DNA of 64,000 nucleotides from an uncultured Candidatus Saccharibacteria bacterium (lineage in GTDB: Bacteria; Patescibacteriota; Minisyncoccia; Phycocordibacterales; Phycocordibacteraceae): contig CAZWLE010000002.1 of NCBI GenBank assembly GCA_964634305.1, positions 921-64,920 of the forward strand, written 5' to 3'. The notes beneath the pieces are model-generated. The model saw only the letters and a list, made by a program, of their open reading frames with translations. It was not told where the DNA came from and made no database searches. Positions 16,273 to 64,000 of this stretch are shown in pieces; within the stretch, counting starts at the first letter, position 1; each line of letters starts with the position of its first letter. Position numbers and translations under genes: made by a program.

Positions 16273-17238
16273 ATGAGAAACGTCGTGACCATAGGGGGCG
16301 GCACGGGCACCTTTGTCGTGCTCTCCGCCCTCCGTCGTATCCCAGGGCTCTCGCTTACTGCAATCGTCTCGTCCGCAGACGATGGAGGGTCTACGGGGCG
16401 TCTTCGTGATGCCTATGGTTTCTTGCCGCTTGGTGATGCACGCCAGGCGTTGGTGGCACTTGCGGAGGACGGTCAGGTCCTCCGTGACCTCTTTGCGTAC
16501 CGTTTTGCAAAGGGAGACATCCAAGGTCATAACCTCGGCAATCTCTTTCTTACAGCTCTTACCGACCTTCTTGGTTCGGATACGGCAGCACTTGAAGAAG
16601 CGTCAAAAATTCTACGTGTCTCGGGTCGGGTGATTCCTGCATCAGAAAAAGCAGGAACGCTCGTTGCCACATTTGCTGATGGCACTGAACTTGAAGGAGA
16701 ACATCATCTTGATGAGGTGGAGCCAGAGCGTGCACGCATTACCGCCCTTCGTCTCAAAGAATCGGTTGCTGCATCGACGGGTGCGCTACAAGCGCTTACA
16801 GAAGCCGATGTCATCATCATTGGTCCTGGTGACCTCTATGCTTCATCAATTGCGCCGCTCTTGCCAGAAGGCATGAAGGAGGCAGTCGCAACCTCAAAAG
16901 CGAAACTGGTATATATCGCAAACCTGTTCACTAAATCAGGTCAAACCGGTGGCATGACAGCCTCAGAGCATGTTGCTGAACTTACCCGGTACGTGGGTCG
17001 TGAAGCTGATTGTATTCTCTTTCATACAAACGGTGGTTTTGGTGCAGACGTTCTCGAGCTCTATGGGAAAGAGGGGGAAGAACCGATAGTTGATGATTTT
17101 GGTGATGACCTGCGTGTTACACGTACGTCAATAGCGTCGGTGCATATGGTACCTCCAGTCCCCGGTGACCCGGTGCCTCGCTCGCTTGCACGCCATGACC
17201 CTGAAAAGCTGGCCGCTGCGCTCACTACTTTGCTATGA
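16273..17238 (+). CDS. YvcK/CofD-like (UPF0052) protein; 2-phospho-L-lactate-transferase-family fold.
   Basis: VTIGGGTGTFVVLSAL...SSADDGGSTGRLR is the family hallmark. Confidence 0.7.
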   Translation: MRNVVTIGGGTGTFVVLSALRRIPGLSLTAIVSSADDGGSTGRLRDAYGFLPLGDARQALVALAEDGQVLRDLFAYRFAKGDIQGHNLGNLFLTALTDLLGSDTAALEEASKILRVSGRVIPASEKAGTLVATFADGTELEGEHHLDEVEPERARITALRLKESVAASTGALQALTEADVIIIGPGDLYASSIAPLLPEGMKEAVATSKAKLVYIANLFTKSGQTGGMTASEHVAELTRYVGREADCILFHTNGGFGADVLELYGKEGEEPIVDDFGDDLRVTRTSIASVHMVPPVPGDPVPRSLARHDPEKLAAALTTLL

Positions 17239-40489: not shown

Positions 40490-41320
40490 ATGGATGAGCT
40501 TACTATCGATGGGAAAATCTATGTATCGTCTAAACGGGCCGCTGCCATAACCGGGTATGCGAAGGACTACATAGGGCAGCTGTGCCGTGAGGGGCGTGTT
40601 GAAGCGAAATTAGTGGGACGCAGCTGGTACGTATACGAGCCGTCTCTCAAGAAGCATCGCTTTAATGATGAGGAAGAGCAGCCTGAGGTGCCAAAAGCAG
40701 AGACAGCGTGGGGAAGTCTTCCAACAGAAGAGCCAATACCAGCTCCTTCTTCTCCTGAACTATCCGAAAACACTAGTATTCAGGCCGTTTGGGATGCACC
40801 AACCTACGCAGCAGAGGAAGTAGAACCGCTGCCTGAACTTGAGCCAGTCGTTGAAGAACCAGCTCAAGAACCACTTACTGATATGCAGTCAGCGTGGCAG
40901 GAATGGTTTGCAAACCGCCCTGAAGAGGCGCCAGTAACCGAATTAGTGGCAGAAGAGGTTGTAGAAGCTCCTAGAGCTCCTGAAGAGTCAAAAGAAGAAC
41001 CTAAAGAGGCCCCTGTAGCAGAAGCAGTACCGTTGAAGGTCATTGTGAGCGATATACAGCCTGTACGGGAGGAACGTGTAGTACCTGCAGCCCCTGCTGT
41101 GCGAGTAGCGCCAGTAGCATCACCTGTACGTATCCTGCAGAGAAAGACGGTCAAAAAGGGAAATAATCGCCTTATGGAAGCAGCGCTTATCTTGGTTATG
41201 GTGGTGAGTGCATCAATAGCTCTCATTTCAACAGGCGCTATAGAGATGCTTCATGTTGGTGGTACCTCAAGCGTGCCTCCTATCCAATATCTTGAAGGTT
41301 CGATACTGATAGAAAGATAG
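40490..41320 (+). CDS. Membrane protein with an N-terminal excisionase/MerR-like HTH (HTH_17-like), an acidic Pro/Glu-rich linker and a C-proximal TM anchor. Its N-terminus is paralogous to that of the giant protein.
   Basis: SSKRAAAITGYAKDYIGQLCREGRVEAKLVGRSWYVYEPSL aligns with ISTRDASALSGYHSDYLARLCREEKIVGSRIGRSWVLDRASL of the 41864 gene. The TM is AALILVMVVSASIALISTGAI (nt ~41180–41245). Confidence 0.7.
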   Translation: MDELTIDGKIYVSSKRAAAITGYAKDYIGQLCREGRVEAKLVGRSWYVYEPSLKKHRFNDEEEQPEVPKAETAWGSLPTEEPIPAPSSPELSENTSIQAVWDAPTYAAEEVEPLPELEPVVEEPAQEPLTDMQSAWQEWFANRPEEAPVTELVAEEVVEAPRAPEESKEEPKEAPVAEAVPLKVIVSDIQPVREERVVPAAPAVRVAPVASPVRILQRKTVKKGNNRLMEAALILVMVVSASIALISTGAIEMLHVGGTSSVPPIQYLEGSILIER

Positions 41321-41402
41321 CCTATATATTGATTATCTCGTCTCGTATAAACGAGTAGCTAAAAATAGCTCAGGTACAGCGAAAACGTACTAAAGAGAAA
41401 AC

Positions 41403-41434
41403 GACCTGAGTAATTCAGGTCGGTTTCTTATTAT
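41403..41434 (+). terminator. Rho-independent terminator after the 40490 gene.
   Basis: GACCTGA gtaa TTCAGGTC followed by GGTTTCTTATTAT. Confidence 0.55.
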
Positions 41435-41633
41435 CGTCGTAGAAAATGTCATTACTGCGTAAATAAAGCGTGTTTTTAGTCTGTAGTTCACAAAAATAAG
41501 ACGTGCGTATGGATTATGAGAACAATCTACTCTGAAGCTCTCTTCTTTTGAACTCAATGACTGGTTGTGCAGAGACTTTTATAGCCGAGATTCTATATGG
41601 CTTATTTATTACTTATTTCGGATAGATTTTATG

Positions 41634-41861
41634 ACGCGTGTTTGTGATGTTTGTTCAGAAATTACATCCACAGACTCATTTTTGACTTCAAATGTTCTTT
41701 AAACACGCGTGAATGATGCTTGCGTAAGTACGTTGTTAAAACGTTTTGAAATATATTTTTTACTTCAACGTAGTTGCGTGAAATTTTTTTCATTTTATCC
41801 CCAAACTTTTCTAGGTACATGCGAATTTCACGCGATAAAATCTAGTTACTTCGGATATCCG
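41634..41861. promoter_or_regulatory. AT-rich leader of the giant gene carrying three perfect palindromic/inverted-repeat elements; candidate operator/promoter region.
   Basis: IR1 is ACGCGTGTTT (41634–41643) / AAACACGCGT (41701–41710). IR2 is GCGTGAAATT (41776–41785) / AATTTCACGC (41825–41834). A 10-bp palindrome CGGATATCCG (41852–41861) ends 2 nt before the ATG. Confidence 0.3.
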
Positions 41862-41863
41862 AC

Positions 41864-44800
41864 ATGTCATTGCTCCTTGATTCAAATCTAATTTCTACTC
41901 GAGACGCATCGGCGCTTTCTGGGTATCACTCCGACTATCTCGCGCGCCTCTGCCGCGAAGAAAAAATTGTTGGAAGTCGCATTGGTCGTTCATGGGTACT
42001 CGACCGTGCATCGCTTGATGCGTTTATACGCGACCAAGAGCTCGCAAAGAAAGAACATGCCGTTGCTCTTACTCGTCAGCGTGAGCAGGAATACCGTGAA
42101 GCACAGAAAGTACACGAGACTATCGCCGTTGTAGAGGCAGAACAGGCTTCAGAGACGCCTGTAGAGGCTCCTGAAGTAGTTTCTGTGCCTGTTACAACAC
42201 CCGTATCAGCACCAGAACGCTCGTACGTGCCGATTCCAAGTCCATACGCGGAGCTTCACCCGATTCGTAACAGTGCCGTTGCTGCTCTGATTGCAGTTGT
42301 TTCTGTTGGTAGTGGCTTGGTTGCTGCTGAGGCTCGCATTGTTGAGCATGTAGCACGCATTTCAGTAGAAAACGTAGCAATTGCTAGCGATATCGGATAC
42401 GAAGCGCTCGCATCTGCAGCTACAGCGACGCTCGCGTTTGAGACAGAACTTGGCCGTTCCATCATTAGTGGTGTCGATACCCTCGCTACTCTCACGCGCG
42501 CCGAGCATCAAAGCGACACGGCTGCCTCAATTCGCTTTGCCTATGACGCAGGGGCACTGCTCCATGCACCAACGCTCCAGACCATTCCGGAGGCACTGTA
42601 TGGAGCACAACTCTCAATCGGTACTACGCTTATCGGAACATCTGATGCAATACTCGCAGCGCATCACACCGGTACGAATGCATGGGTTGAGGGTAGCGAC
42701 ATTGTGCCGCGTCGCGTTATTGCTGCTATCTACGGCGTTGGTGATGAGTTCCAGCGTGTTGCACTTCTTGCACCGCACGCTGCTGCAACGACTGCAGATA
42801 CTGCTATTGTTGCGCTCGCCGGCGAGACGCGCACCGTTGCAAACAACGCCGTTGATGCGATTTCATCGTCGCGTGATGTATTCGCACGAGCATTCAACAC
42901 ACGATTGGTTGAGCCGCGCGCAACACTTGCAGCGGTACCGCATGAAGACACGTTGGGCCCTGCACGTGCGCTTGCACTCTTTACGTACGAAACACTCAAC
43001 AGCTTCTTTGACGCGACGAGTCGTACGCTCGCAATGCTTTTCGCACCGCTTGCGCCAAACGTTGCCTACGCACCAGAACTTACTGTGCCTGGTACAGGTA
43101 CCACTTCTGTCTCTCGCCAGGTCGTTGAAGTCAGCCGAGTAGTAAATGAAATAACGAACGTTACGTACTCAAGCCCGATTACCTACGTGTACGGTGGCGT
43201 CACTATGGAGTACGTTCGTGCGGCTATAGAGAACCTCCGCGATGACGTTGCTGATGCTGATTATGGCTCAGGGGATGGCGGCCTCGCAGACATCACTGGC
43301 TCCTCTATAGAAGAGCTTTCTGACGTGGGTACCATGGCTAAGACCTGGGGCGATTTACTCTTCTGGGATGGTACTGAGTGGTCGAACCTCGCAACATCAA
43401 GCCTTGGTATTACGGGTAGTGGTATTCCAGGTGGCGCACCAGGCTACGTGCAATACAACGTTGGTGGAAACTTTGGAGGTGACGCCGCTTTTACGTTTGA
43501 TGCTGCTGCAGACCGCCTCTCCTTTACGTACGGTTCGACCACCGCATTTTCAACGGGATTCCTGAATGCAACGAGCGCAGTCATCGATACACTCTCATCA
43601 ACGGTTGCAACGGTCACCAGTCTTATTGCAACGAATGCTACTACTACTAACGCAACGTCGACGAATCTCACAGCGCTTAACTCGTTCGCACTTGGTGCTG
43701 ACCGCATCACTGATCTCACCGGCTCAGGTCTAACAGTAACGGCAGGTGCGCTCGCTGTTGATGATGTAACGCCGGCGATGCTTCAAGCGGCAGACTTTGG
43801 TGATTTCACTTGTAACGGTACGTCATGTTCATTTGATGCGGACACAGTGTCTGACAGTGAGCTCGATTACGGCACGGTCACACTAACTGACTTCACCAAC
43901 GATGCAGGGTTTATCACTGGTATTGGTGCGTTCTCGATTGAAGACCTATCGGATGTTGCCGCGATGACAGAGAGCTATGGCAACCTTCTCTCCTGGAACG
44001 GGAGCGCGTGGACGAACATTGCGACCTCGACGTTGAACATTGCCCTCAGCAACACGACAGGCATTCTTCCTATTAGTAGAGGAGGCACCGGTACTTCTAC
44101 CGTTCCGACCTACGGACAGCTACTCGTAGGTGACGGCCTCGGGGGCTATGCACTACTTGCGACCTCTTCTCTGGGTATTTCCGGCAGCGGCGGTACGCCA
44201 GGTGGGCTTACAGGTCAGGTGCAGTTTAATAGCGCAGGTACGTTCGCAGGAGACACTGGCTTTACCTACGACGCAGCGGCTGACCGTTTGACTGTAACCT
44301 ATGCGTCTTCGACAGCCTTCTCCTCTATATATGCCTCGTCAACGAACGTATTTGCGGGGAATCTGACCGTTGGCTCACTCACGGGCATCTTGAAAGCTAC
44401 GGGCGGGGTAGTCTCTGCAGCGACTGCCGGTACTGACTATGAGAACCCCCTTACCTTTGCCTATCCTCTGACGCGCTCAGTGAATACTGTTTCTCTCGCG
44501 TTTGGTACCACGACGACTAACACCTGGGTACATCAAATCTTCTCGTCCCTCGTTGCAACAAATGCGTCTTCAACCAACGCCACGACGAGCCAGCTGGCCG
44601 TCACGTCACTGCCGTCACAGCTCCTACGCACGGATGGTACGGGACGCCTTGCAGGGACGACTATAGGTACGGGCCTTACCTTCGACGGTACGACGCTCTC
44701 AGCAACAGGTGGCGGCGGGACAGGTAACGTTTCAACCTCAAGCAGTGAGACCGCAGGACAGGTACCGTACTGGACGACCACGGCAGGCTCTCCAGCGCGT

Positions 44801-47800
44801 CTTGGTAGTGTTGCGACCACAACCTTTGCCGTTTCTGGTCCGTTTAACGTCTCTGGAAGCCTTGGCTCGCTCATTGGCGGTACGAACGCGACGATTTCAT
44901 ACTACGGCCTTGCTACTACCTCGAATATTAGTCAGGGTCAGGTGCTCTACGGCACGAGTGCTTCAGGGGTCGCCTCAGTTGCTACTTCAACACCAGCACT
45001 TTCTACGGCCTTTAGTTACTCTGGCACGCTTGGTTCGTTTGTAGGTGGAGCCTCAGGTACGCTCTCGCTTGCAAATAATGGTGTAGCGCTCACCAATCTT
45101 GCGCAGATTGCAGCGAACACTGTTCTCGCTAATCCAACGGGAGCAATCGGTAACGTGCAAGCGATTGCGACCTCAACCTTCTTTGGAACAGGCACCGGTG
45201 GCTACGTGCTTGCTTGGAACAACGGCGCACCAACGTGGGTAGGTACCTCATCTATACAAAACGGCGTCGCAGCAATAGGTCCTGCAGGACAGACACAGAC
45301 GGGTACGGTACTTATTGCTACGAGCACGAGCGGTACTGACATTACGGTAACGGCTACTGGTGGCACTATTACCTTTAATATCCCATCAGCATCCGCGTCT
45401 GCACGCGGTCTTCTTACCAGTACCGACTGGAACACCTTCAACAACAAGATTAGCTCTACCTCGCTCTCTGGTGGTACGGGTATTAGCTACAACAGTGGCT
45501 CAGGTGTCATCACCAACACCGGTGTTACTTCGCTCTCTGGTACGACCAATCAAATAACGGCATCTGCGGCTACCGGTGCGGTTACGGTCTCTCTTCCTGG
45601 TCTCGTCGCATTCCCGAACGCCTACACCGCAAGCTACGGCACTACCACCTACGCCTCTTCAACGGCGCTCTCCTCCGTATACGCATCGTCAACAAACGCA
45701 TCCTTTGGAAATCTTTCAGTTGGCACACTGACTGGTCCGCTCCAGGCTGTCAACGGCGTTGTCTCAGCATCGTCGACACTCTCTGTTGTATATGGCGGCA
45801 CTGGCTGGAACGCAGTGCAGTCTGGTGCGCTTTTGTACGGTAATGGCGCTGGTCGTTTAGCGACGACAACGCAAGGTACCGGTGGTCAGGTGCTTGCGTG
45901 GTTGAACGGTATCCCTACGTGGACTGCGACGTCCTCCATACAAAACGGTGTGTCTTCAGTGCAGCAGTCCTTTGGCGCTGCACAAACCGGTGCCATCACA
46001 CTCGCCACAAGCTCAGACACAAACGTGCTGCTCTCCATTACTAACTCTGGTGGCACCTTTACCTTTACTCCGTCGTGGACAGGTACGCTTGCGTACGGTC
46101 GTGGCGGTACAGGCACAACGACTGCGCCCGCAGGTCAGTTGTTGTATGGCGGTACGACAGCCTATCAGTCGGTGGCAACATCAACGGTTTCTGCAGGAAC
46201 GGGTATTGGGTTTACGGGTACGCCAGGGTATCTCGTGGGAGGAACTAATCTCACGATTACCAACAACGGTGTCACAAGTATAAGTGGCACCACTAACCAG
46301 ATAACGGCATCTGCTGGTACTGGTGCAGTAACGTTGTCGCTTCCAGGTCTCGTCGCATTCCCGAACGCCTACACCGCAAGCTACGGCACTACCACCTACG
46401 CCTCTTCAACGGCGCTTAGTGCGGCGTACGCTTCATCTACCAATCTCTTCGTCGGCAATTTCACTCTCGGTACGCTTAATGGTCCATTGCAAGCAAACAA
46501 CGGTGTCGTATCAGCGACTACCACTATTGGTGCGATTTATGGTGGTACTGGTCAGAGTAGCTACGCAGCAGGCGATCTTCTCTATGCAGATTCCGCGACG
46601 TCACTTGCACGTCTGCCAGTTTCAACCAACGGCTTGGTCTTGAAGCTAGTGGGTGGGCTACCAAGTTGGCAGCCAGACCTTACGACGGGTGGCGGTGGTG
46701 GTGCGGGAGCGTGGAGCACGACGACTGATAGTCTCGCAATTTACCCTTCAGATACCTCTGACGTGGTCATTATAGGAGCCTCGGCTACCTCCACCACAGG
46801 CAGCATCTTTGAAGTCGCAGGTCGTTCCTATTTCTCAAACACACTCAGTATCGGTACCACCTCTGGTTCATCGCTATTCCGTCTTGCGGTGCAGGGTAAT
46901 GGCCTTTTCTCCGGAAATCTTTCAACGGCGAATCTTACTGCGACGGGTACAGTATCAACGGCAAATCTTACTGCAACGGCGGCAACCACCACGTACCTAG
47001 GCATCAACAACGAAACCTTCACCGACCTCACTGGCACGGGTCTTCAGAACGTTGGTGGTGCGCTTACGATTAACGCTACCGGCGATTGGACAGGAACATT
47101 TGACGGACAGGAAGGCACCTATTATCTCAACCGCGCAAATCACACAGGCACGCAGCTTGCATCGACGATTTCTGACTTCGATGGTGCGGTCAATACCTAC
47201 ATCGCTGGTTCCACCACGATTCCAAAGACCTATAGCGCGAACACCTTCACCGGCGCTCAGGTATTTAGCAGCGGCGTTACTATAGGTACCCTTAATGGTC
47301 CTTTGCAGGCAAATAATGGTGTCGTTTCAGCTACGACGTCTGTTGGCGTCCTCTACGGAGGCACTGGTCTTACTACTGCACCAAGTTACGGGCAGATTCT
47401 CGTGGGCAATAGTAGTGGTGGGTATACCCTGACCGCTACCTCTTCACTTGGTTTGGTTACGAGCGCAGTTACCGCTATTGGTCCGGCAGGGCAGGCACAA
47501 ACGGGACCAACGGTAACGTTCGCGACGAGCTCAACGGCGTACAACGGTCTTACGGCGTCAACGACGATTACAGCAACAGGAAACACTATTACATTTGCTA
47601 ATACACTCGCTGGTCTCCTTGGTGTAGCAGGTGGCGGTACTGGTTCAACAACGTTGGGCGGTATTCTCACCGGTAACGGCACCGGTCAGGTAACGAGCGC
47701 GACGGTGTCTGCGCCCCTTAGCTTCAGTGGCAATACGCTCTCTATTTCGCAGGCCAATGGCTCGACCAACGGCTATCTTTCTTCAACCGACTGGAACACC

Positions 47801-56983: not shown

Positions 56984-56986
56984 TAT

Positions 56987-59338
56987 ATGCGATACCTATC
57001 CTTCATTCTCATCACGATAGTGCTGGTAGCAGGAGGTGTCGCATACCTACGTCCTGAGCATATTAGTCAGCTTGTTGCTCCGCCGCTCGTGGTGACAAAA
57101 ACCACGACTATTCCGAGTGCACCCTCGACTGCTACTACCAGTATTAATCACTACCATTACGAGACGGTAGGGGTTTCCTATGACTATCTTGAGCGCCGGC
57201 TTGCTGAACTCATGGTTGAACGAACTATCATTATTGATAGACGTAGTGAAAGCGGCAGTAGACGTGGTGGTTCGAGCGGTGGGTCTGCGACGGTTGATGA
57301 CGTCACGCCAGACCAACTTGCTGCTGCTGATTTTGGTGACTTTACCTGCAACGGTACTACGTGTGATTTAGATATAGAGAGTTATGGCCTCGAGGACCTT
57401 TCTGATGTGGGAGCGATGACTGAAACATTTGGTGATGTACTTATGTGGAATGGCACTATGTGGACCAATGTTGCTACGTCATCGCTTGGTATTGGGGCAG
57501 GTAGTGGTTCGCCAGGCGGTGCAAACACGCAGGTCCAGTTTAATAACGGTGGCGTGTTTGCGGGTGATGCTGGATTCACCTACGACGCTGCCGCAGACCG
57601 TGTTACCGCAACGTATGCATCTACGACTGGCATTAGTGCATCATATGCATCATCAACGAACGCATTTTTCGGTGCACTTACGCTTGGAGGTGACACACTG
57701 ACTGATTTCACTGGCGCAGGTCTCTCTGTTTCAAGTGGCGCGCTCACTATATCTACCGCGGGCGACTGGACGGGACTCTTTGATGGTCAGGAGGGTAGTT
57801 ACTATCTTGCTAATTCATTTAGTTCGACATCGGCTACGCATTTCGTGCACTCTTCAACAACGATTCCAAAGACGTATACCGCCAATACATTTACCAGCGC
57901 TCAAGTGTTTAGTGGTGGAGTAACGATTGGAACGTTGAACGGACCGCTCCAGGCAAATAATGGTGTTATTTCCGCTACCACCTCTGTTGGTGTGTTGTAT
58001 GGAGGTACAGGACTTACGACGGCACCGACGTACGGACAGGTACTTGTCGGTAATGCCTCTGGAGGGTATACGCTTACGGCGACGAGTTCGCTTGGTCTTG
58101 GAGGCAGTTCCGGTCTCACTTCCTATGATGCCTGGACGCATCCAGCAGCAGGGCAGTCTGCGACAACCTCACTGATGTTGTTTAATGGGAACGCGTCCTC
58201 GACACAGTTCTCTGCGATGCAGGCGTACTTTGGCGGCACCGCAACGACGACCTTCACCGCAGCAGGGTTCCTTGGTGTCGGTTCCTCAAGTCCATGGGCA
58301 CAACTCTCGATTAATCCGACAAGTGCAAACGGCAGTGCACCAGCGTTTGCTATTGGAAGCTCAACTGCAACAAGTTTTGTTATCACAAACGCAGGTAATG
58401 TTGGTATCGGATCGACCTCACCGGCAGCGCGCCTTGGCGTTGCGGGCAACATCTATACAACAGGTGATTTAGTGCTTGGTGGTGGTACCGGAAAACTCAC
58501 CGTCGGTACGGTTGACCCGGTCTACACGGTCGACGGCGTGAACTACGCAACGTATGTCTCGGGCATGGTGGGTATTAAAGAAGAGGTGACGGGTGCCGCA
58601 GATATTCATACACCAGTCACGGCAGATGATGGCAGCTCAGGCTACGTTGCAGTGCTCGATTTTGATGATGAGCTTCCGGGAAGTGACTTGTGGCTCTTTG
58701 CACAAGCAACACATATCCGTAAGCATATAGACCGTCTGATAGTGCTCCTCTCCGCAGAGAACGGTGCACGAGTCTGGTATGAAATCGACGAAGCAGAACG
58801 AAAGGTGTATCTCCTTTCGGATACCCCAACCCGCGTGTCGTACCGTATGACGGCACCACGCTTTGATACCGCCGAGTGGACGAACTACAACCTTGATGGC
58901 ATCACGGGCTTTAAACCGCCGTCAAACGACATAGGGGACTATTTCTCTGAATTGTTCACACTGTCGTTTGGATCTACGACCGCGTATCTCTCTGACGGTC
59001 TTACGGAAGCGCTTCGCACATGGTTTGCAGACGCAACAAACGGTATTGGGTCCATGATGGCGAATGTGTTTAGCGCTAAGGAGAAAATCTGTGTCGATGG
59101 CGAATGTCTTACGAAGGATGACATTCGAGTACTACTTCGTCTCGTGGGAGAGGAACGGGGAGGAGCGGGCGGCGGAGAACCACCAGTGGAACCAGAGGAC
59201 CCACCGGTTGAAGAAGGGCTAACCCCGACTCCAGAGACCCCCCTTCCTGAAGAAGAACCTGAACCTGAGCCAAAAGTGCCAGAAGAGCCACCAAGTACTC
59301 CCGAAGAACCTGCAGGTGAGACGCCGCCTGGTCCGTAG
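56987..59338 (+). CDS. 783-aa paralog ('mini' version) of the giant protein. It has an N-terminal signal-anchor TM, the same repeat modules and the same conserved C-terminal domain, and ends in a Pro/Glu-rich acidic tail.
   Basis: TM is MRYLSFILITIVLVAGGVAYL. VDDVTPDQLAAADFGDFTCNGTTC matches VDDVTPAMLQAADFGDFTCNGTSC in the giant protein. The C-terminal ~170 aa (KLTVGTVDPVYTVDGVNYATY...RVSYRMTAPRFD...) are ~70% identical to the giant's C-terminal domain. The start codon is 4 nt after the giant gene's stop. Confidence 0.8.
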   Translation: MRYLSFILITIVLVAGGVAYLRPEHISQLVAPPLVVTKTTTIPSAPSTATTSINHYHYETVGVSYDYLERRLAELMVERTIIIDRRSESGSRRGGSSGGSATVDDVTPDQLAAADFGDFTCNGTTCDLDIESYGLEDLSDVGAMTETFGDVLMWNGTMWTNVATSSLGIGAGSGSPGGANTQVQFNNGGVFAGDAGFTYDAAADRVTATYASTTGISASYASSTNAFFGALTLGGDTLTDFTGAGLSVSSGALTISTAGDWTGLFDGQEGSYYLANSFSSTSATHFVHSSTTIPKTYTANTFTSAQVFSGGVTIGTLNGPLQANNGVISATTSVGVLYGGTGLTTAPTYGQVLVGNASGGYTLTATSSLGLGGSSGLTSYDAWTHPAAGQSATTSLMLFNGNASSTQFSAMQAYFGGTATTTFTAAGFLGVGSSSPWAQLSINPTSANGSAPAFAIGSSTATSFVITNAGNVGIGSTSPAARLGVAGNIYTTGDLVLGGGTGKLTVGTVDPVYTVDGVNYATYVSGMVGIKEEVTGAADIHTPVTADDGSSGYVAVLDFDDELPGSDLWLFAQATHIRKHIDRLIVLLSAENGARVWYEIDEAERKVYLLSDTPTRVSYRMTAPRFDTAEWTNYNLDGITGFKPPSNDIGDYFSELFTLSFGSTTAYLSDGLTEALRTWFADATNGIGSMMANVFSAKEKICVDGECLTKDDIRVLLRLVGEERGGAGGGEPPVEPEDPPVEEGLTPTPETPLPEEEPEPEPKVPEEPPSTPEEPAGETPPGP

Positions 59339-59356
59339 TGTACTAACGCCCTCCCT

Positions 59357-61696
59357 ATGCTGGTACGATTGCTATACTACGGACATATGGTCAGCAGAGC
59401 AGCAGTCCTCATGGTGCTTCTAGGTATCGTCGGTACCACGTTTGCGCCGTCGCTTCACGCACAGGAAGCACCCGTACCCGAGCTACTGACGAGTACGCTT
59501 TCCAGAGGCGACGAATCAGCAGAGGTGCGATTGTTGCAGGAGTGGCTTGGTATCGAAGCACCAAACGGCATCTATGGTGATGCAACCGTTGCTGCGGTGG
59601 AGGCATACCAAGAAGAACAGCGGGTGATACTCCTTAGTCCATCCGGTGACCTTGGGTATGGCATTGTTGGACCGCTTACGCGCGCAAGTCTCAATAGTGA
59701 ATTCTCAAACACGCAAGGCGGTACGCCGCTCGTCGAGGCAGCATACGGTGATGCAGCAAAATTCGATGGCACCTCATTTGTACCGTTTACCGAAGCAACG
59801 TACGAAGTAAGCGGCACACTGACGAGTCGTATGGATGTATGGGTAAAGCCGACTGCACTCACGGATTACGACACCATACTCTTCACTAACGAAGACAATC
59901 ACCGGATTGGCCTTACGGAGAATGGAAAGATATTTGCTGATGCACCGGCTGGTCGTGCTATCACCAAACGCGCGTACATAACGGCAGGGGAGTGGCAGCA
60001 TCTTTCTATTCTCTATACCCGTGATGATGCGGTGTTCCTCCATAACAATCAGGTGGTTGAAATAGTCCCGCTTACGACGGTTGGTGTCATTCCAACCTTC
60101 TTCGAGCGATTCTTTAAATCTGCATCGGATTCCATAGTGTCCATTTTTACTCCAAAGACGAAAATGACACCTACGACGATGCTTGAGCGTAGTGAATATA
60201 CCGGTGAAGCACCAAAAGCACCTGGCATCTTTGGCTCCATCGTTTCTTTTGCTAAAGGTCTTTTTGGGGGTGATACCGGCACGACTCCCTCTGAGCCGGT
60301 CCCTGCGGCCGGTCCGGTAGTGCTTGAGCCAGCACCAGTAGTGGTAGAGCCGGCGGTTGAACCAGCGCCCGTTCTCCCGGTGATTCCAACCAAGCCGCTC
60401 ACATCGCCATTACAGCCAAAGCCGTCTGACACCGCACCGCTTATTACGACAACGGTTGTGACGGTACCCGCGACAACGACTACTAGTACAAGCACCGCTA
60501 CTTCTACGACGACCGTCATTGCAAGTGCAGGCAGCACTACCACTGTATCGACTACGAGCGGGTCAAAAGGTTCCTCAGGTGGTGGTTCAGTCAGAAATTC
60601 AACGCCTGTTATTAAGCTCGTAGGTAGTTCGAAAGTAACGATACAGCTTGGTGAAATTTATACCGACCCAGGCGCCTCTGCCGAAGATAAAGAAGATGGT
60701 GATATCTCAAATAACGTGGTCATTGGTGGTGATGTTGTTGATCATAATGATGCTGGCACCTATATCATCACGTATAACGTCACTGACTCGAGTGGTACAA
60801 AAGCAAAAGAAGTAAAACGCACCGTAATCGTTAAAGCGCCACCAAGTCTCTCTCAGGGAGAACAGGAGCCAGAATATCCGCTTGGACCTGCAGGACAGTC
60901 AGTGTCACTTTCCGTTTCAAACGCCTCAGGCGCAGATCCGAAATTCTCATCGGTTGATATCTCGCCGCTTCATGTGTACGTAGGTGATACACAAACCTTT
61001 ACAGTGAAAGTCAGCTCGGCTAGCGGAATTGATTCGGTGACTGCAGTGACGAAACTCGATACCTCAACGCATACGCTTCCACTCGTTGAGACATCACCTG
61101 GTACGTACTCAGCATCATGGGTGGTGCATGACACACACACGCAGATTTACCGCACCAAGTTCACTGCCGTAAACGGGAACGGCGATACGAACTCGGTAAC
61201 TATGGCATGGTCCGATCCGTGTTCAGGTATTACGCAAGGCAGTAATGGATCGTTGAGTGCCGATTGTGCTGTTTCGATTGTAGACGGTCTTGATTCCGGA
61301 ACGTTAACTATTCCCGCAGGCCGTACTTTGACCATTAATAACGGCGGTACGTGGGCATTTAATCCCGGCACTTCTATTATCGTTGACGGCGCAATCGTAA
61401 AGGCAAGCGGTGGGCAGTTGAAGAAGGGATACCTTTACTATGTAGGTGCCACCAATGCTTCCGCAAATACGGGGACCATGGTCTTCGATACAGCGTCGAG
61501 CTTGTCAGGCCATGTACGTGTTGGTACCTACACGCAAGCGTCTTACTACAGCCAAGGCTACTATCAGGGGTATTACTACGGCCAGGGATATTACCAAGGC
61601 TATTATTATGGCCAAGGCTACTACTACGGTCAGGGCTATTACTATGGCCAAGGGTATTATGAATCTCAGTACTACTCTCAGGTGATGTACAAATAA
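59357..61696 (+). CDS. Exported multidomain protein: signal/TM, a PG_binding_1-like domain, a LamG/ConA-like domain, a Pro/Thr/Ser-rich linker, an Ig-like (DUF5011-like) domain, a beta-rich region, and a C-terminal Tyr/Gly-rich (GQGYYY)n tail.
   Basis: LSRGDESAEVRLLQEWLGIEAPNGIYGDATVAAVEAYQ (PG_binding_1-like). DGTSFVPF...GEWQHLSILYTRDDAVFLHNNQVV (LamG-like). PVIKLVGSSKVTIQLGEIYTDPGASAEDKEDGDIS...YNVTDSSGTKA (Ig-like/DUF5011-like). C-terminus SQGYYQGYYYGQGYYQGYYYGQGYYYGQGYYYGQGYYESQYYSQ. Confidence 0.8.
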   Translation: MLVRLLYYGHMVSRAAVLMVLLGIVGTTFAPSLHAQEAPVPELLTSTLSRGDESAEVRLLQEWLGIEAPNGIYGDATVAAVEAYQEEQRVILLSPSGDLGYGIVGPLTRASLNSEFSNTQGGTPLVEAAYGDAAKFDGTSFVPFTEATYEVSGTLTSRMDVWVKPTALTDYDTILFTNEDNHRIGLTENGKIFADAPAGRAITKRAYITAGEWQHLSILYTRDDAVFLHNNQVVEIVPLTTVGVIPTFFERFFKSASDSIVSIFTPKTKMTPTTMLERSEYTGEAPKAPGIFGSIVSFAKGLFGGDTGTTPSEPVPAAGPVVLEPAPVVVEPAVEPAPVLPVIPTKPLTSPLQPKPSDTAPLITTTVVTVPATTTTSTSTATSTTTVIASAGSTTTVSTTSGSKGSSGGGSVRNSTPVIKLVGSSKVTIQLGEIYTDPGASAEDKEDGDISNNVVIGGDVVDHNDAGTYIITYNVTDSSGTKAKEVKRTVIVKAPPSLSQGEQEPEYPLGPAGQSVSLSVSNASGADPKFSSVDISPLHVYVGDTQTFTVKVSSASGIDSVTAVTKLDTSTHTLPLVETSPGTYSASWVVHDTHTQIYRTKFTAVNGNGDTNSVTMAWSDPCSGITQGSNGSLSADCAVSIVDGLDSGTLTIPAGRTLTINNGGTWAFNPGTSIIVDGAIVKASGGQLKKGYLYYVGATNASANTGTMVFDTASSLSGHVRVGTYTQASYYSQGYYQGYYYGQGYYQGYYYGQGYYYGQGYYYGQGYYESQYYSQVMYK

Positions 61697-61738
61697 GGGC
61701 TGCTTTAGGGGCTGCGCGAAAACGGGTACAATGCCCTC

Positions 61739-62947
61739 ATGATTGAGCGGCGCCGGCTCCTTTTTTCACTCGCATTCCTTCTGGTTGTAGGGTCTATAGG
61801 CGCTGTCGGGCTTTGGTACGAACGACAGCAGCAGACCTACCCTGAGATGGCCGAGCTTGCTGCAAGCAACCGTACATTCCAAGAATATTCGGATTATTTC
61901 CGCCGCCTCTCGGAAGAGAAAGGTGCTGAATATGCCTATCAGGTATTACTGCGTGCACCTCTTGCGACAGGGACTGATTTGCACCTTCTTGGTCATGTCG
62001 TCGGCGATATGCTCTATAAGCAGCAGGGCATTAAAGGCATCAATAGTTGTACACAGGATTTTCGTAACGCGTGCTCGCATTCAGTGGTTATTGGCATACT
62101 GAGTGAACATGGTGAAGGCGCGTTGAGTGAAATAGCAGCAACGTGCAAGAAGGCACCAGGAGGGCAAGGCGCATATACGATGTGCTTCCATGGTCTTGGA
62201 CACGGTGTCCTTGCGTACAACGGATATCGCCTTGAGCGCGCCGTAGAGATGTGCAAATTAACTGGCACGCCTGAATACGGGTATCAGGAATACGCACAAT
62301 GTGTCGGTGGCGCCAGTATGGAGATGGTGGCAGGCGTACACGATCGAGAAGTATGGCAGAGCCAGTACGGGAATTATTTTAGTGACACCGACCCGCTCGC
62401 TCCATGTAACCAAACATATATGGATGACGCGGTACGTCCATTTTGTTACATGCACCTGACGCCACGGCTGTTTGAAGCAGCAGGTATGGACCTGGGTGCA
62501 CCCGACCCGTCAGTGCTTCCAGAAGCTTTTTCCTATTGTGATGCCATTCCTGTTACCGATGAGCGAGATAGAGCAGCGTGCTATGGCGGGTTTGGTAAGG
62601 AATTCATTGTGCTTGCACAATGGCGCGATATTCGCCAAATAAGTGAAACCGACGAGGCAACGCTCCGTACCGTACGCGAATGGTGTGCGTACGCGGGTGA
62701 CGAGACGGGAGAAGATGACTGTAACTCGTCAGCGCTCGACTCGTTATATTGGGGAGGAGAGATTGAACCAGACGCCGCGTTTCGTTTTTGTGCGATTGCA
62801 GAAGGAGGTGAACAGGCTGCGTGTTACGACAAACTTGCGACGCTGACTAGCTATTTCCTCCCGAAAGGATTGAAGCGTCATGCGGTGTGTGAACGATTGC
62901 CGGAAGAATATCAGGAACGATGTAAAGCTATGGATACCGGCATATGA
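61739..62947 (+). CDS. Cys/His-rich membrane-anchored exported protein, unknown family; paralog of the next gene.
   Basis: N-terminal TM LLFSLAFLLVVGSIGAVGLW. 18 Cys. Shared motifs with 62944 include LLGHVVGDMLY / LLGEAIYD and CFHGLGHG / CQHGLGHG. Confidence 0.7.
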   Translation: MIERRRLLFSLAFLLVVGSIGAVGLWYERQQQTYPEMAELAASNRTFQEYSDYFRRLSEEKGAEYAYQVLLRAPLATGTDLHLLGHVVGDMLYKQQGIKGINSCTQDFRNACSHSVVIGILSEHGEGALSEIAATCKKAPGGQGAYTMCFHGLGHGVLAYNGYRLERAVEMCKLTGTPEYGYQEYAQCVGGASMEMVAGVHDREVWQSQYGNYFSDTDPLAPCNQTYMDDAVRPFCYMHLTPRLFEAAGMDLGAPDPSVLPEAFSYCDAIPVTDERDRAACYGGFGKEFIVLAQWRDIRQISETDEATLRTVREWCAYAGDETGEDDCNSSALDSLYWGGEIEPDAAFRFCAIAEGGEQAACYDKLATLTSYFLPKGLKRHAVCERLPEEYQERCKAMDTGI

Positions 62948-63924
62948 CGGCCCGCACGTATATCCGCACAGCCCTGGTGATTGGCCTTCTTGCTCTCGGT
63001 ATCTATGCGATGGTGCAGTATGTTCGCCCAGAACCAGTTGTCAGTTCTGTGTCTGCTACGCGTGAGGGTATTGAAGCGTTGGTAAAAAAAGAAGGTCCTG
63101 CAGATGCCTACGTAGTGCTCAAGAAACAGTACGCGGGTACCAACTACGATTTACAGCACAACGTATCGCATCTTCTTGGGGAAGCTATTTACGATGCTGA
63201 CGGTCTTGCGGCGGTGCGCGTATGCGATGCAGAGTTTAACTACGGGTGCTATCACGGCTTCTTTAAGAGAGCGGTATCCGAACAGGGCGTCAGTGTTCTA
63301 CAGGAGCTCGATGGCGAGTGTGCGCAGTTTACTGACGGACGTTCGTCACAATGCCAGCACGGACTTGGTCACGGACTCATTGAGTTCTTTGGCATGAAAG
63401 GACTACCGAAGGCACTGGAAGCATGCGCAACCCTTCCACAACCAGACCCAGTCGCGGGATGCTCGTCGGGTGTCTTCATGGGTTACAACTTACGATTCGA
63501 GCCAACGGGGAAGGATGGCTTTATAACCGTGGCGCGTCCGATTGCGTCTGGTGAATCGGCATACACTCCATGCGATACGGTAGCTGAATCGTTTGCCGAA
63601 TCCTGTTACTACCAACTACCACAGTGGTGGAACCAGGTGTTCGATAAGGACTTCTCAAAATTTGGGTCACTCTGTGCGGCTCTCTCAAGTGACGTGGTGC
63701 GGTCGCGATGCTTCCAAGGCATCGGCAACATCGCAGCCTCGTCTGGAGGATATGACGTCGCGCGTACCAAGGAACTCTGTGCACTCATGCCAAGTGCTGA
63801 AGGAGAGGCAACGTGTGTGGTCGTTGCAAGTTGGGCATTTGAGAAAAATATCTTTGACCACGAGAAAGCACTCGAGATGTGTGCAGACGTTGCGCCAGAC
63901 GCAAAAACCTATTGTCCTGTATGA
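62944..63924 (+). CDS. Cys/His-rich membrane-anchored exported protein; paralog of 61739.
   Basis: N-terminal TM ALVIGLLALGIYAMV. Conserved CxHGLGHG motif and a similar Cys spacing. ATGA start/stop overlap with the next gene. Confidence 0.7.
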   Translation: MTARTYIRTALVIGLLALGIYAMVQYVRPEPVVSSVSATREGIEALVKKEGPADAYVVLKKQYAGTNYDLQHNVSHLLGEAIYDADGLAAVRVCDAEFNYGCYHGFFKRAVSEQGVSVLQELDGECAQFTDGRSSQCQHGLGHGLIEFFGMKGLPKALEACATLPQPDPVAGCSSGVFMGYNLRFEPTGKDGFITVARPIASGESAYTPCDTVAESFAESCYYQLPQWWNQVFDKDFSKFGSLCAALSSDVVRSRCFQGIGNIAASSGGYDVARTKELCALMPSAEGEATCVVVASWAFEKNIFDHEKALEMCADVAPDAKTYCPV

Positions 63925-64000
63925 CGTCTCGCTCCTACACCTATATAGGTATCGCACTTGCAGCGCTCGTAGGTGGATGGCTCATCCTGCATGCTCTGTA
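63921..64000 (+). CDS. Partial CDS (3' end outside window) beginning with a TM-like segment.
   Basis: ATG at 63921 overlapping the upstream TGA; encodes MTSRSYTYIGIALAALVGGWLILHAL... Confidence 0.4.
   Translation, partial: MTSRSYTYIGIALAALVGGWLILHAL

What the first reader, a model, noticed from the sequence alone, without database searches (positions are those of the whole stretch)
40490..64000. Co-directional ~23.5-kb module of novel envelope proteins built around a giant repeat protein; candidate cell-surface attachment system
Six consecutive plus-strand genes with coupled or near-coupled starts encode only membrane-anchored or exported proteins that lack recognisable enzymatic domains. 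They are: (a) a small HTH-TM protein; (b) a 5,039-aa protein that shares (a)'s N-terminal domain; (c) a 783-aa mini-paralog of (b) with the same C-terminal domain; (d) a protein with peptidoglycan-binding, LamG and Ig-like domains and a Tyr/Gly-rich tail; (e) and (f) two Cys/His-rich paralogs. The cluster lies directly downstream of a 25-kb glycan-biosynthesis cluster. In CPR-type episymbionts, giant surface proteins are suspected to mediate host-cell attachment. This combination of domains, including an HTH-anchored giant adhesin and a PG-binding/LamG/Ig/YG-tail partner, is not a described system to my knowledge.
Basis: partly seen in the sequence, partly recalled or inferred. Interest (0 to 1): 0.85.

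Follow-up and report, generated by a model that had tools for sequence, protein, structure and literature searches.

The report
Membrane-anchored tail-fibre-like surface fibre locus
An ultrasmall Patescibacteria (Parcubacteria-type) bacterium carries a conserved gene cluster for a giant cell-anchored fibre related to phage tail fibres and to the prey-binding fibres of Bdellovibrio, and the fibre's particular tip domain travels together with a set of partner envelope proteins, but what any of them does is still untested.

Summary
All six genes and their paralogies are real. The cluster is not a chance neighbourhood. The order gatB, a, b, (d), e, f recurs at the same chromosomal site in many Paceibacteria genomes.

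- **b and c** are tail-fibre-like proteins. They share sequence with Bdellovibrio MAT fibres (Bd3182, E 5e-16).
- **The b anchor** is a cytoplasmic TraN-like winged HTH plus one TM helix. At least 232 protein clusters share it, some up to 7,275 aa.
- **The fibre C-terminus is mosaic.** It carries a new 150-aa 'tip' domain, an S74 chaperone, an Ig domain or something else.
- **d, e and f accompany only the tip variant.** They follow 3 of 3 tip-type giants and 0 of 4 non-tip giants at the orthologous locus.
- **e and f** are confidently modelled disulfide-rich alpha-solenoids from a conserved, Patescibacteria-only family.
- **d** is a PG-binding/LamG/Ig protein with a Tyr/Gly-repeat tail.

No phage genes are present. 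The tip and e families were not found in IMG/VR. Host attachment is plausible but unproven, and the tip is unusually conserved.

Verdict: a new variant of a known kind (tail-fibre/MAT-like surface fibres) with several undescribed parts.

The parts
40490..41320 (+). Gene a. Small tail-anchored protein: N-terminal TraN/excisionase-like winged HTH (residues ~1-60), acidic/Pro-rich linker, TM helix at residues 228-246, short external tail.
   Evidence: ORF. HTH_17 at 14.4 bits. Paralogous to the b N-terminus, E 9e-9. TM. Orthologues follow gatB in L003, L020, L070, L078, L085-L089. Relatives carry two tandem HTH copies.
41321..41863 (+). 543-bp AT-rich spacer between a and b. It holds a terminator-like hairpin (41402-41422) and short inverted pairs (41634-41643/41701-41710; 41776-41785/41824-41833) that could be operators.
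   Evidence: No Rfam match. A spacer of 160-540 bp is also present in the relatives I measured.
41864..42049 (+). b residues 1-62: cytoplasmic winged HTH (HTH_17 / TraN-like).
   Evidence: HTH_17 at 21.4 bits. Excisionase PHROG. Profile A4 hits TraN/AM32 in PDB, E 4e-5. 1,600 library hits with b1-460, of which 232 at E<=1e-10.
42272..42343 (+). b residues ~137-160: the single TM helix (signal anchor). Everything downstream of it is extracytoplasmic.
   Evidence: Hydropathy scan. 44 of 49 large relatives have a TM within the first 300 aa.
43241..51163 (+). b residues ~460-3100: type-A fibre modules (GGTG / ATSSLGI motifs), built by segmental duplication (for example 1701-2000 matches 2131-2430 at 90-92%).
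   Evidence: Shared with c and with Parcubacteria 'tail fiber domain-containing' proteins.
51164..55963 (+). b residues ~3100-4700: type-B beta-helix modules (GIGTTSP, SYDAWTH motifs, CxxxxxxC loops).
   Evidence: Weak PDB hit of the equivalent part of c to Bd2133.
54938..55171 (+). b residues 4359-4436: probable C1q/TNF-like jelly-roll insert.
   Evidence: Pfam C1q at 19.9 bits, sub-threshold. Weak PDB hits to adiponectin and C1q-related factor, E 0.005-0.02.
55442..55795 (+). b residues 4527-4644: beta-helix domain homologous to the distal domain of the Bdellovibrio MAT fibre Bd3182.
   Evidence: phmmer against PDB 8OJN/8ONB/8ONC: E 2e-13 with the long query and 5e-16 with the short query, alignment shown.
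55934..56443 (+). b residues ~4691-4860: 'tip' domain, a new ~150-aa alpha/beta domain.
   Evidence: 50% identical to the c tip. See the c tip entry.
56654..56983 (+). b C-terminal extension: conserved Cys-pair motif (KICV...C, Cys 4944/4953) and a Gly/Asp/Ser-rich low-complexity tail.
   Evidence: The motif is shared with S74-type proteins.
56987..59338 (+). Gene c. 783-aa mini-fibre: N-terminal TM anchor (no HTH), type-A and type-B modules, tip, KICVDGECLTKDD motif, Pro/Glu-rich tail.
58454..58915 (+). c residues ~490-643: tip domain core.
59357..61696 (+). Gene d. Secreted partner protein: signal/TM, PG_binding_1 (~59444-59731), Laminin_G_3 (59717-60136), Pro/Thr linker, Ig-like (60611-60832), conserved C-region (60854-61516), (GYYYGQ)n tail (61520-61693).
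   Evidence: Orthologues lie between the tip gene and e in 11 of the 79 genome loci and in L086 and L087. Some orthologues end in a Hint domain placed directly after the Tyr-rich stretch.
61739..62947 (+). Gene e. N-terminally anchored, disulfide-rich alpha-solenoid (8 Cys pairs, invariant His motifs).
62944..63924 (+). Gene f. Diverged paralogue of e (7 Cys pairs). Its start overlaps the e stop by 4 nt.
   Evidence: An f-like paralogue lies directly downstream of e in 52 of 75 loci. Arrays of up to about six e/f-family genes occur in relatives.

Best explanation
**What the locus makes.** It specifies a cell-anchored surface fibre of the tail-fibre/MAT kind, presumably trimeric, together with its partner proteins.

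**Shown.**
- b is a type-II membrane protein. A small TraN-like winged-HTH domain stays in the cytoplasm. One TM helix anchors the protein. About 4,880 residues of mosaic fibre modules lie outside the membrane.
- The fibre ends in a beta-helix homologous to Bdellovibrio MAT fibres, followed by a new 'tip' domain.
- c is a short TM-anchored version with the same tip.
- At the orthologous gatB locus the anchor pair a+b is constant, while the fibre length and the C-terminus vary.
- The tip variant is inherited together with d, e and f.

**Inferred.**
- The tip sits where sister proteins carry the self-cleaving S74 folding chaperone.
- d, e and f therefore act in trans on tip-type fibres. They could be assembly factors or docking partners at the membrane-wall interface. 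The analogy is the phage tail-fibre assembly genes, which are swapped together with the fibre's C-terminal part.
- d would link to peptidoglycan through its PG-binding domain.
- The Tyr/Gly repeat tail of d may be held by the e/f solenoids.
- The exposed fibre could reach about 200 nm, scaling from the Bd2133 tip fragment (370 residues, about 142-150 A). It then contacts other cells or surfaces through lectin-like modules (tip, C1q-like, LamG).
- The cytoplasmic HTH domains of a and b either bind DNA at the membrane or act as an internal anchor.
For: **Fibre identity.**
- b 4527-4644 matches Bd3182, E 2e-13 and 5e-16.
- c matches Bd2133, E 7e-4.
- 205 homologues of c are Parcubacteria proteins, many named tail-fibre proteins with S74.
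- MAT fibres are trimeric, surface-located and mosaic-tipped (PMC10769870).

**Anchor.**
- The HTH is followed by a single TM.
- 24 of the 120 listed c homologues share the N-terminal HTH.
- 232 clusters match b1-460 at E<=1e-10. In that search 49 of the 144 newly retrieved hits analysed are >=1,000 aa, and 44 of those 49 have an early TM.

**The tip replaces S74.** P0344 has the same flanking motifs with S74 in between.

**Synteny.**
- Searching 553 kb upstream and 635 kb downstream of e gave tip genes 25 upstream and 0 downstream. The same counts were HTH 9 and 0, d C-region 14 and 1, and YG-repeat proteins 27 and 5.
- L086 and L087 reproduce Wzy_C, MurB, SecA, Obg, GatB, a, b(tip), d, e/f.

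**Cassette behaviour.** Tip-type giants (window, L086, L087) are followed by d and e/f. S74, Ig or other-ended giants (L085, L088, L089, L090) are not.

**Not phage.** Flanks are housekeeping genes. There are no tail-fibre or virion PHROG matches, only weak excisionase- and endolysin-type hits. No tip or e homologues were found in the IMG/VR scans.

**Extracytoplasmic character.** Paired Cys occur in b, c, e and f.
Against: - No oligomeric state, localisation or binding was tested.
- The trans-partner role of d, e and f rests on co-inheritance only. The independent sample is small (2 tip-type against 4 non-tip, plus the window).
- The e family also occurs in 42 of 65 loci with no tip gene within 10 kb upstream, so e and f must do more than serve this fibre.
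- e and f have no similarity to known chaperones.
- HTH_17 is below Pfam threshold in the window proteins.
- The tip is conserved at about the rate of e. That argues against a rapidly co-evolving host receptor as its ligand.
Confidence: 0.6

Rival explanations
1. One reading: a host-attachment system. The fibre tip binds a receptor on the host cell of this episymbiont. d, e and f are further adhesins or wall proteins that merely share the operon.
For: - Homology to prey-binding MAT fibres and resemblance to phage receptor-binding fibres.
- Lectin-type modules are present (LamG, C1q-like, Ig).
- The tip also occurs on type IV pilin-like proteins.
- The literature expects large CPR surface proteins to mediate attachment (PMC5220378, PMC13059738, PMC10633639).
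Against: - The tip is 54-71% identical between species in the closest relatives, much like e (47-62%). Receptor-binding tips of phages and MATs are their most variable part.
- e and f are conserved alpha-solenoids anchored in the cell's own membrane.
- Strict co-inheritance of tip with d, e and f suggests a self-encoded partner.
- No host is known.
Confidence: 0.2
2. A contact-sensing signalling device. a and b are membrane-tethered transcription factors (ToxR-like, or Notch-like after proteolysis). Load or ligand on the giant ectodomain changes DNA binding by the cytoplasmic HTH.
For: - The HTH profile matches TraN/AM32, a proven DNA-binding repressor with two tandem wHTH domains (PMC6158623).
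- a-like proteins in relatives have two tandem HTH copies.
- The HTH-TM architecture is conserved in at least 232 clusters.
- The long a-b spacer holds inverted repeats.
Against: - No DNA target is known, and the short repeats could be chance.
- HTH-TM proteins such as RodZ use the HTH for protein contacts (my own knowledge).
- No protease or other signalling gene is in the cluster.
- A 5,000-aa sensor would be unprecedented.
Confidence: 0.12
3. A purely structural envelope component: a coat of glycosylated fibres and wall-tethering proteins for cell integrity, with no role in cell-cell contact.
For: - Thr/Ser/Gly-rich composition (41% of b).
- A 25-kb glycan cluster and Wzy_C lie nearby and stay syntenic.
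- d has a PG-binding domain.
- e and f are highly conserved.
Against: - Fibre length and C-terminus vary strongly between close relatives (1,091-7,275 aa). That is atypical for a structural coat.
- Homology is to adhesive fibres.
- Many genomes have e and f without a fibre gene nearby.
Confidence: 0.06
4. A prophage or tailocin remnant, or a chance adjacency of unrelated genes.
For: Databases call relatives 'tail fiber domain-containing protein'. The HTH resembles excisionases.
Against: - There are no capsid, terminase, baseplate or integrase genes. Flanks are secA, obg and gatB.
- No tail-fibre or virion PHROG was matched.
- No tip or e homologues were found in the scans of 2.9 million IMG/VR contigs.
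- GC content shows no island apart from the AT-rich spacer.
- Order and orientation are conserved across orders.
Confidence: 0.02

Closest known systems
Bdellovibrio bacteriovorus MAT (mosaic adhesive trimer) fibres: Bd3182 (S74 type), Bd2133 and others (non-S74 type); Caulton et al. 2024, PMC10769870
   Same: - Cellular (non-phage) tail-fibre-like proteins of a bacterium that lives on other bacteria.
- Significant sequence homology of the distal beta-helix (E 5e-16).
- A constant N-terminal anchor with mosaic C-terminal tips.
- An S74 / non-S74 dichotomy, in which a beta-rich domain replaces the S74 chaperone.
   Different: - The anchor here is a cytoplasmic HTH plus a TM helix, not a signal peptide plus an N-terminal surface-binding domain.
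- Size reaches 5,039-7,275 aa against about 1,000 aa.
- The tip is a different, conserved domain.
- A fixed chromosomal locus with partner genes (a, d, e, f) has no reported MAT counterpart.
- The phylum is different (Patescibacteria).
Phage tail fibres with a swappable C-terminal part and a downstream assembly chaperone (Mu/P1 S-U cassettes, lambda Tfa, T4 gp38), and fibres with the S74 intramolecular chaperone (my own knowledge; one search lists T5 pb1, PMC4690869)
   Same: - Repetitive beta-rich fibre modules.
- The C-terminal domain and the genes just downstream are inherited as one cassette.
- Variants with an S74 chaperone lack the downstream genes.
   Different: - There is no virion context.
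- d, e and f have no sequence or fold similarity to Tfa, gp38 or gp57A.
- e and f are membrane-anchored solenoids conserved far beyond fibre loci.
TraN (pIP501) / AM32 (pAMbeta1): tandem winged-HTH repressor of a conjugative T4SS (PMC6158623)
   Same: It is the closest solved relative of the a/b HTH (E 4e-5). Tandem duplication of the HTH is also seen in a-like proteins.
   Different: TraN is a small soluble cytosolic protein. Here the domain is tethered to the membrane and, in b, fused to a giant ectodomain. DNA binding is untested.
Single-pass HTH-TM proteins: ToxR/CadC-type membrane-bound regulators and RodZ (my own knowledge)
   Same: A cytoplasmic HTH, one TM helix and an extracytoplasmic domain.
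   Different: The HTH class is different (HTH_17 rather than OmpR-type or XRE). The ectodomain is a fibre of thousands of residues.
Helicobacter cysteine-rich proteins (Hcp, Sel1-like repeats) (my own knowledge)
   Same: Exported alpha/alpha repeat proteins with one disulfide per repeat.

Membership tests
MAT superfamily (Bdellovibrio fibre adhesins) | Homology of the fibre beta-helix region | tested here: met
   b 4527-4644 against Bd3182 (8OJN/8ONB/8ONC), E 2e-13 and 5e-16. c against Bd2133 (8OND), E 7e-4.
MAT superfamily (Bdellovibrio fibre adhesins) | Mosaic C-terminal tips, with or without the S74 chaperone | tested here: met
   The tip replaces S74 between identical flanking motifs. Orthologous giants end in tip, S74, S74+Ig or another domain.
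MAT superfamily (Bdellovibrio fibre adhesins) | Invariant N-terminal MAT anchor domain after a signal peptide | tested here: not met
   The b N-terminus is HTH_17/TraN-like plus a TM helix. The paper describes a secreted protein (construct 21-1031) whose N-domain has no PDB homologue.
MAT superfamily (Bdellovibrio fibre adhesins) | Homotrimeric fibre on the cell surface | not testable with these tools
   Only monomer prediction was available. Trimer-forming domain types (S74 in sister proteins, C1q-like) are indirect hints.
Bacteriophage tail fibre | Encoded in a viral or prophage genome with virion genes | tested here: not met
   Housekeeping flanks. No tail-fibre or virion PHROG. No tip or e homologues found in the IMG/VR scans.
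Peptidase_S74 (intramolecular chaperone) fibres | S74 domain at the C-terminus | tested here: not met
   No PF13884 hit in b or c. It is present in sister proteins P0344, P0350, P0083 and in L085, L088, L089.
HTH_17 / TraN-like winged helix | Sequence match to the family | tested here: inconclusive
   The window proteins are below the Pfam cutoff (21.4 and 14.4 bits against 27). Homologues carry precomputed PF12728. Profile A4 hits TraN/AM32, E 4e-5.
HTH_17 / TraN-like winged helix | Sequence-specific DNA binding | not testable with these tools
   Only candidate inverted repeats in the a-b spacer.
ToxR-like membrane-bound transcription regulators | OmpR-type wHTH, one TM, periplasmic sensor | tested here: not met
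   The topology is analogous, but the HTH belongs to a different family.
PG_binding_1 / Laminin_G_3 / Bact_surface_Ig-like (protein d) | Pfam domain matches | tested here: met
   Ig 5e-19. LamG_3 30.1 bits on d121-260. PG_binding_1 is weak in the window (18.4 bits) but 23.6-36.5 bits in five of the six d orthologues scanned, four of them clearly above the 23-bit cutoff.
C1q/TNF-like domain (b 4359-4436) | Pfam or PDB sequence match | tested here: inconclusive
   19.9 bits against a 23.7 cutoff. PDB E 0.005-0.02.
Sel1-like / Hcp cysteine-rich repeat proteins (e, f) | Sel1 repeat signature | tested here: not met
Phage tail-fibre assembly chaperones (Tfa / gp38-like) | Sequence homology | tested here: not met
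   No tail-fibre assembly or chaperone PHROG/Pfam hit for d, e or f; d has only weak endolysin-type PHROG hits from its PG-binding region. Only the genomic logic is shared: downstream position and co-inheritance with the fibre C-terminus.

The most novel reading that the evidence does not exclude
The HTH-TM-fibre proteins would be a new class of bacterial surface receptor. A fibre up to 7,000 residues long would be wired directly to a cytoplasmic DNA-binding domain, so that contact with a host or sibling cell is read out at the chromosome. This could work as in ToxR, or as in Notch after cleavage.

In this reading the conserved tip does not bind a host receptor. It binds the co-inherited, self-encoded d/e/f complex. 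The e/f solenoids would grip the Tyr/Gly repeat tail register by register. That gives a latch, or a cell-cell coupling system, specific to Paceibacteria.
Probability: 0.12. Interest if true: 0.9.

Novelty: new variant of a known kind. Interest (0 to 1): 0.64.

Why it matters
Paceibacteria (Parcubacteria) have very few cultured members, and how they contact other cells is unknown. This locus offers concrete, conserved candidates.

- **A fixed chromosomal site.** It lies after gatB and holds the organism's largest surface protein.
- **A recurrent anchoring solution.** A cytoplasmic HTH plus a TM helix anchors hundreds of giant proteins.
- **Three undescribed domain families.** These are the tip, the e/f Cys-pair solenoid and the Tyr/Gly repeat tail.
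- **A natural experiment.** Tip and S74 variants at one locus link the tip to d, e and f.

The locus also extends the Bdellovibrio MAT concept to a second lineage that lives on other microbes. It raises a testable question: can a surface fibre be coupled directly to DNA binding?

Tried and rejected
**Searches that found nothing.**
- NCBIfam and PADLOC gave no hits for any of the six proteins, and PHROGs gave no tail-fibre or virion match (only weak excisionase and endolysin hits).
- The exact-sequence contig look-up for c failed, although the cluster table shows a 133.7-kb NCBI contig. The source organism is therefore not named. Its closest e orthologue among the genome loci is 62% identical, and an 89% hit exists in Logan assemblies.
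- PDB sequence and profile searches for e found nothing.
- Rfam found nothing in the a-b spacer. The promoter scan was uninformative.

- The afdb50 library was unavailable.
- A whole-protein self-BLAST of b returned nothing. I replaced it with a chunked search.

**Ideas rejected.**
- Prophage or tailocin remnant.
- Assembly artefact.
- Defence system.
- Chance adjacency.

**Literature.** Searches found no description of this locus, only general statements about large CPR surface proteins.

Full report
**1. Observation**

The six plus-strand ORFs are present as described.

| Gene | Coordinates | Length |
|---|---|---|
| a | 40490-41320 | 276 aa |
| b | 41864-56983 | 5,039 aa |
| c | 56987-59338 | 783 aa |
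| d | 59357-61696 | 779 aa |
| e | 61739-62947 | 402 aa |
| f | 62944-63924 | 326 aa |

BLASTP confirms the three paralogies:
- a against the b N-terminus, E 9e-9.
- c against the b C-terminus, 47% identity, E 5e-84, plus shared repeat modules.
- e against f, E 4e-16.

Each protein has one hydrophobic segment. It is near the C-terminus in a, at residues 137-155 in b, and N-terminal in c, d, e and f.

The junctions b/c, c/d, d/e and e/f are 3, 18, 42 and -4 nt. The a/b junction is different. It is a 543-bp AT-rich spacer with a terminator-like hairpin, so a is its own transcription unit.

The glycan cluster is real and about 25 kb long (8820-34121). It holds seven Glycos_transf_1-family glycosyltransferases, a GT47, DegT, sugar dehydratases and epimerases, methyltransferases, an acyltransferase, a flippase and Wzy_C. 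MurB, SecA, Obg and GatB lie between it and the module.

The DNA repeats inside b are diverged (60-90% identity). This argues against an assembly artefact.

**2. The fibre proteins b and c**

Pfam sees only a sub-threshold HTH_17 and a sub-threshold C1q-like stretch in b, and nothing in c.

The large protein search found 205 relatives of c. Wherever they carry a name they come from Parcubacteria, Paceibacterota or Minisyncoccia. Many are called 'tail fiber domain-containing protein' (Peptidase_S74) or 'helix-turn-helix domain-containing protein'.

Against PDB sequences:
- c hits Bd2133 (E 7e-4).
- b residues 4527-4644 hit Bd3182 (E 2e-13, and 5e-16 with a short query). The alignment includes the GNVGIGTTSP and SNLxIxRYxDxG motifs.

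These are the 'mosaic adhesive trimer' (MAT) fibres of Bdellovibrio. They are surface-located, phage-like and trimeric. They have an invariant N-terminal anchor and swappable tips, with or without the S74 chaperone (PMC10769870).

The internal map of b:

| Residues | Content |
|---|---|
| 1-460 | Unique region: HTH, TM, stalk |
| ~460-3100 | Type-A modules with recent segmental duplications (up to 92% identity) |
| ~3100-4700 | Type-B beta-helix modules |
| 4359-4436 | Probable C1q-like insert |
| ~4691-4860 | Tip |
| After the tip | Cys-pair motif and a Gly/Asp-rich tail |

Scaling from the Bd2133 tip fragment (370 aa, about 142-150 A) gives roughly 200 nm for b and 30 nm for c. This is an inference.

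**3. The anchor**

A profile of the HTH domains (A4) hits TraN/AM32 in the PDB (E 4e-5). TraN is a DNA-binding repressor made of two tandem winged-HTH domains (PMC6158623). a-like proteins in relatives carry two tandem HTH copies, whereas the window's a has one.

A search of 1.84 billion representatives with b1-460 gave 1,600 hits, of which 232 had E<=1e-10. I analysed the 144 newly retrieved hits among the best 150:
- 49 are >=1,000 aa, 26 are >=2,000 aa and 6 are >=4,000 aa. The longest is 7,275 aa.
- 44 of the 49 large ones have a TM within the first 300 residues.
- 29 of the 49 carry c-like modules.
- Only 3 have the tip. At least ten of the longest (≥2,400 aa) end in an Ig-like domain.

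The HTH-TM module is therefore a widespread N-terminal anchor for Patescibacteria surface giants, and their C-termini are mosaic.

**4. The tip**

The shared C-terminal domain of b and c has 114 homologues, nearly all from Patescibacteria. It usually sits at the very C-terminus of short fibre proteins. Two homologues have type IV pilin N-termini, and one has a Shufflon_N match.

P0344 and P0350 share both flanks with c (GNVGIGTTSP before; NGIG..ANVF.AKEKICVDGECLTKDDI after). They carry an S74 domain exactly where c has the tip.

**5. Protein d**

d contains:
- PG_binding_1, weak in the window but at or above threshold in five of the six d orthologues scanned.
- Laminin_G_3, 30.1 bits on the isolated segment.
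- Bact_surface_Ig-like, 5e-19.
- A conserved C-region.
- A (GYYYGQ)n tail.

Seven orthologues instead end in a Hint/PT-HINT autoprocessing domain. Its catalytic Cys (CFAPET) directly follows a Tyr-rich stretch. In both variants the mature protein would therefore end in a Tyr-rich tail. This is an inference.

**6. Proteins e and f**

e belongs to a family of more than 1,100 proteins. The listed best hits are 47-89% identical over ≥90% of the query, are found in Patescibacteria only, and have no Pfam domain. The family has 16 invariant Cys in eight pairs and invariant His motifs.

f is a diverged paralogue with seven Cys pairs.

**7. Synteny**

Scanning one genome per GTDB species with the e alignment gave 79 loci from Kaiser-, Nomura-, Adler-, Colwell-, Sungii- and Spechtbacteria, UBA2163 and others.

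| Feature relative to e | Loci |
|---|---|
| f-like gene directly downstream | 52 of 75 |
| Tip-bearing gene upstream, same strand | 23 of 65 |
| Full d orthologue between the tip gene and e | 11 of 65 |
| Tyr/Gly-repeat protein upstream | 21 of 73 (7 immediately adjacent) |
| At least one of these upstream | 33 of 65 |

An internal control compared 553 kb upstream with 635 kb downstream of e:

| Feature | Upstream | Downstream |
|---|---|---|
| Tip | 25 | 0 |
| HTH | 9 | 0 |
| d C-region | 14 | 1 |
| YG-repeat protein | 27 | 5 |

ORF maps show the order (obg), gatB, a-like, HTH-fibre-tip, [d or small secreted YG-repeat proteins], e, f and further e/f paralogues.

L086 (a 742-kb contig) and L087 reproduce the whole window arrangement from the flippase and Wzy_C through MurB, SecA, Obg, GatB, a, b(tip) and d to the e/f genes.

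**8. Cassette behaviour**

I looked up giants chosen through the HTH search. At the same gatB site, the giants in L085 (7,275 aa, S74+Ig), L088 (5,467 aa, S74+Ig) and L089 (5,704 aa, S74) keep the a orthologue. They run straight into the GAPDH-RpiB-Rpe-transketolase block, or nearly so, with no d, e or f. L090 (3,295 aa) ends in another domain and also lacks them.

Tip-type giants (window, L086, L087) all have d plus e/f. That is 3 of 3 against 0 of 4. My own Fisher exact calculation gives p about 0.03 including the window, or about 0.07 without it.

The locus therefore has three parts:
- a constant anchor pair (a plus the b N-terminus);
- a variable shaft;
- a swappable 3' cassette, in which the tip travels with d, e and f.

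**9. Mechanism**

Shown:
- b and c are fibre homologues with the stated topology.
- The locus is conserved.
- The C-termini are mosaic.
- The tip is co-inherited with d, e and f.
- The genes do not come from a phage: flanks are housekeeping genes, no tail-fibre or virion PHROG was matched, no tip or e homologues were found in the IMG/VR scans, and there are no PADLOC hits.

Inferred:
- The fibre is trimeric and surface-exposed.
- d, e and f act in trans on tip-type fibres, because the tip replaces the intramolecular S74 chaperone. Phage fibre C-termini are swapped together with their downstream assembly genes in the same way.
- d bridges to peptidoglycan.
- The e/f solenoids may hold the Tyr/Gly repeat tail.
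- The HTH domains bind DNA or an internal partner.

The tip is about as conserved as e in the closest relatives (54-71% against 47-62%). This fits a self-encoded or otherwise conserved ligand better than a diversifying host receptor.

The e family also occurs without a nearby tip gene in 42 of 65 loci. Its role cannot be limited to this fibre.

**10. Comparison and novelty**

The closest characterised system is the Bdellovibrio MAT superfamily. Homology of the beta-helix and the mosaic S74/non-S74 tips are met. The MAT N-terminal anchor is not met, and trimer formation and surface location were not testable.

The locus is not a phage tail fibre. It has no viral context and no S74 domain in b or c.

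I found no publication on the HTH-TM anchor, the tip domain, the e/f family, the Tyr/Gly tails or the locus as a whole. The literature only notes that CPR bacteria carry large surface proteins with lectin, FN3 or similar domains.

I rate it a new variant of a known kind, with several new parts and one striking unexplained feature: a DNA-binding-type domain at the cytoplasmic end of giant surface fibres.

Noticed in passing
window 7110-8777 (+), with 6009-7094 (+): A 555-aa TrwB/VirD4/TraG-like type IV secretion coupling protein follows a 361-aa ORF that has no Pfam match. The pair sits between peptidoglycan-synthesis genes (MurD, racemase, MurC-like) and the glycan cluster.
   Followed up: no
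L007, L008, L013, L016, L017, L024, L050, L086, L087 (d orthologues): d orthologues end in a Hint/PT-HINT autoprocessing domain. Its catalytic Cys directly follows a Tyr-rich stretch ('...SYYSEPSY|CFAPET'). The window's d lacks Hint and ends in (GYYYGQ)n.
   Followed up: partly
L026 3008-3715, L042 3183-4295, L056 846-1757, L062 9041-9928, L064 3375-4457, L078 9125-9892: Small proteins made largely of Tyr/Gly(/Gln) repeats lie immediately upstream of e orthologues in many Paceibacteria. In the window's lineage the same repeat is fused to the C-terminus of d, directly upstream of e. This is a Rosetta-stone-like link between the YG repeat and the e family.
   Followed up: partly
P0247, P0266, P0256 (homologues of the tip, window 58454-58915): The tip domain also occurs at the C-terminus of proteins with a type IV prepilin N-terminal methylation motif, and of one protein with a Shufflon_N match. 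It can therefore be displayed on pilin-like proteins as well as on fibres.
   Followed up: partly
L008 8236-14318, L013 7602-13350, L017 5217-10776, L086 22525-28340, L087 20316-26389: The e/f family forms tandem arrays of four to six paralogues in relatives. The window shows two before it ends at 64000, so more may follow.
   Followed up: partly
window 41321-41863: The a-b spacer contains two perfect 10-nt inverted pairs (ACGCGTGTTT/AAACACGCGT, 57 nt apart; GCGTGAAATT/AATTTCACGC, 38 nt apart). They could be operators for the HTH proteins or could be chance.
   Followed up: no
window 59054-59137 and 56654-56758; P0344, P0350, P0353, P0356: A strongly conserved post-tip motif (NGIG..ANVF.AKEKICVDGECLTKDDI) is shared by tip-type and S74-type fibre proteins. 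Its role is unknown.
   Followed up: no
window 16273-17238 (+): A CofD/YvcK-family gene (E 8e-73) is embedded among the glycosyltransferases of the glycan cluster.
   Followed up: no
L002 2263-4807: secA is split into six short ORFs on this JGI contig. These are probably sequencing frameshifts rather than biology.
   Followed up: no
L021, L031, L043, L051, L052, L058, L061, L075 and many 'Saccharibacteria'-titled loci: Genome records carrying the Patescibacteria-specific e family are titled Nanoarchaeia, Bacteroidetes, Gammaproteobacteria, Verrucomicrobiia or Saccharibacteria. These are likely placeholder names or mis-binned contigs.
   Followed up: no
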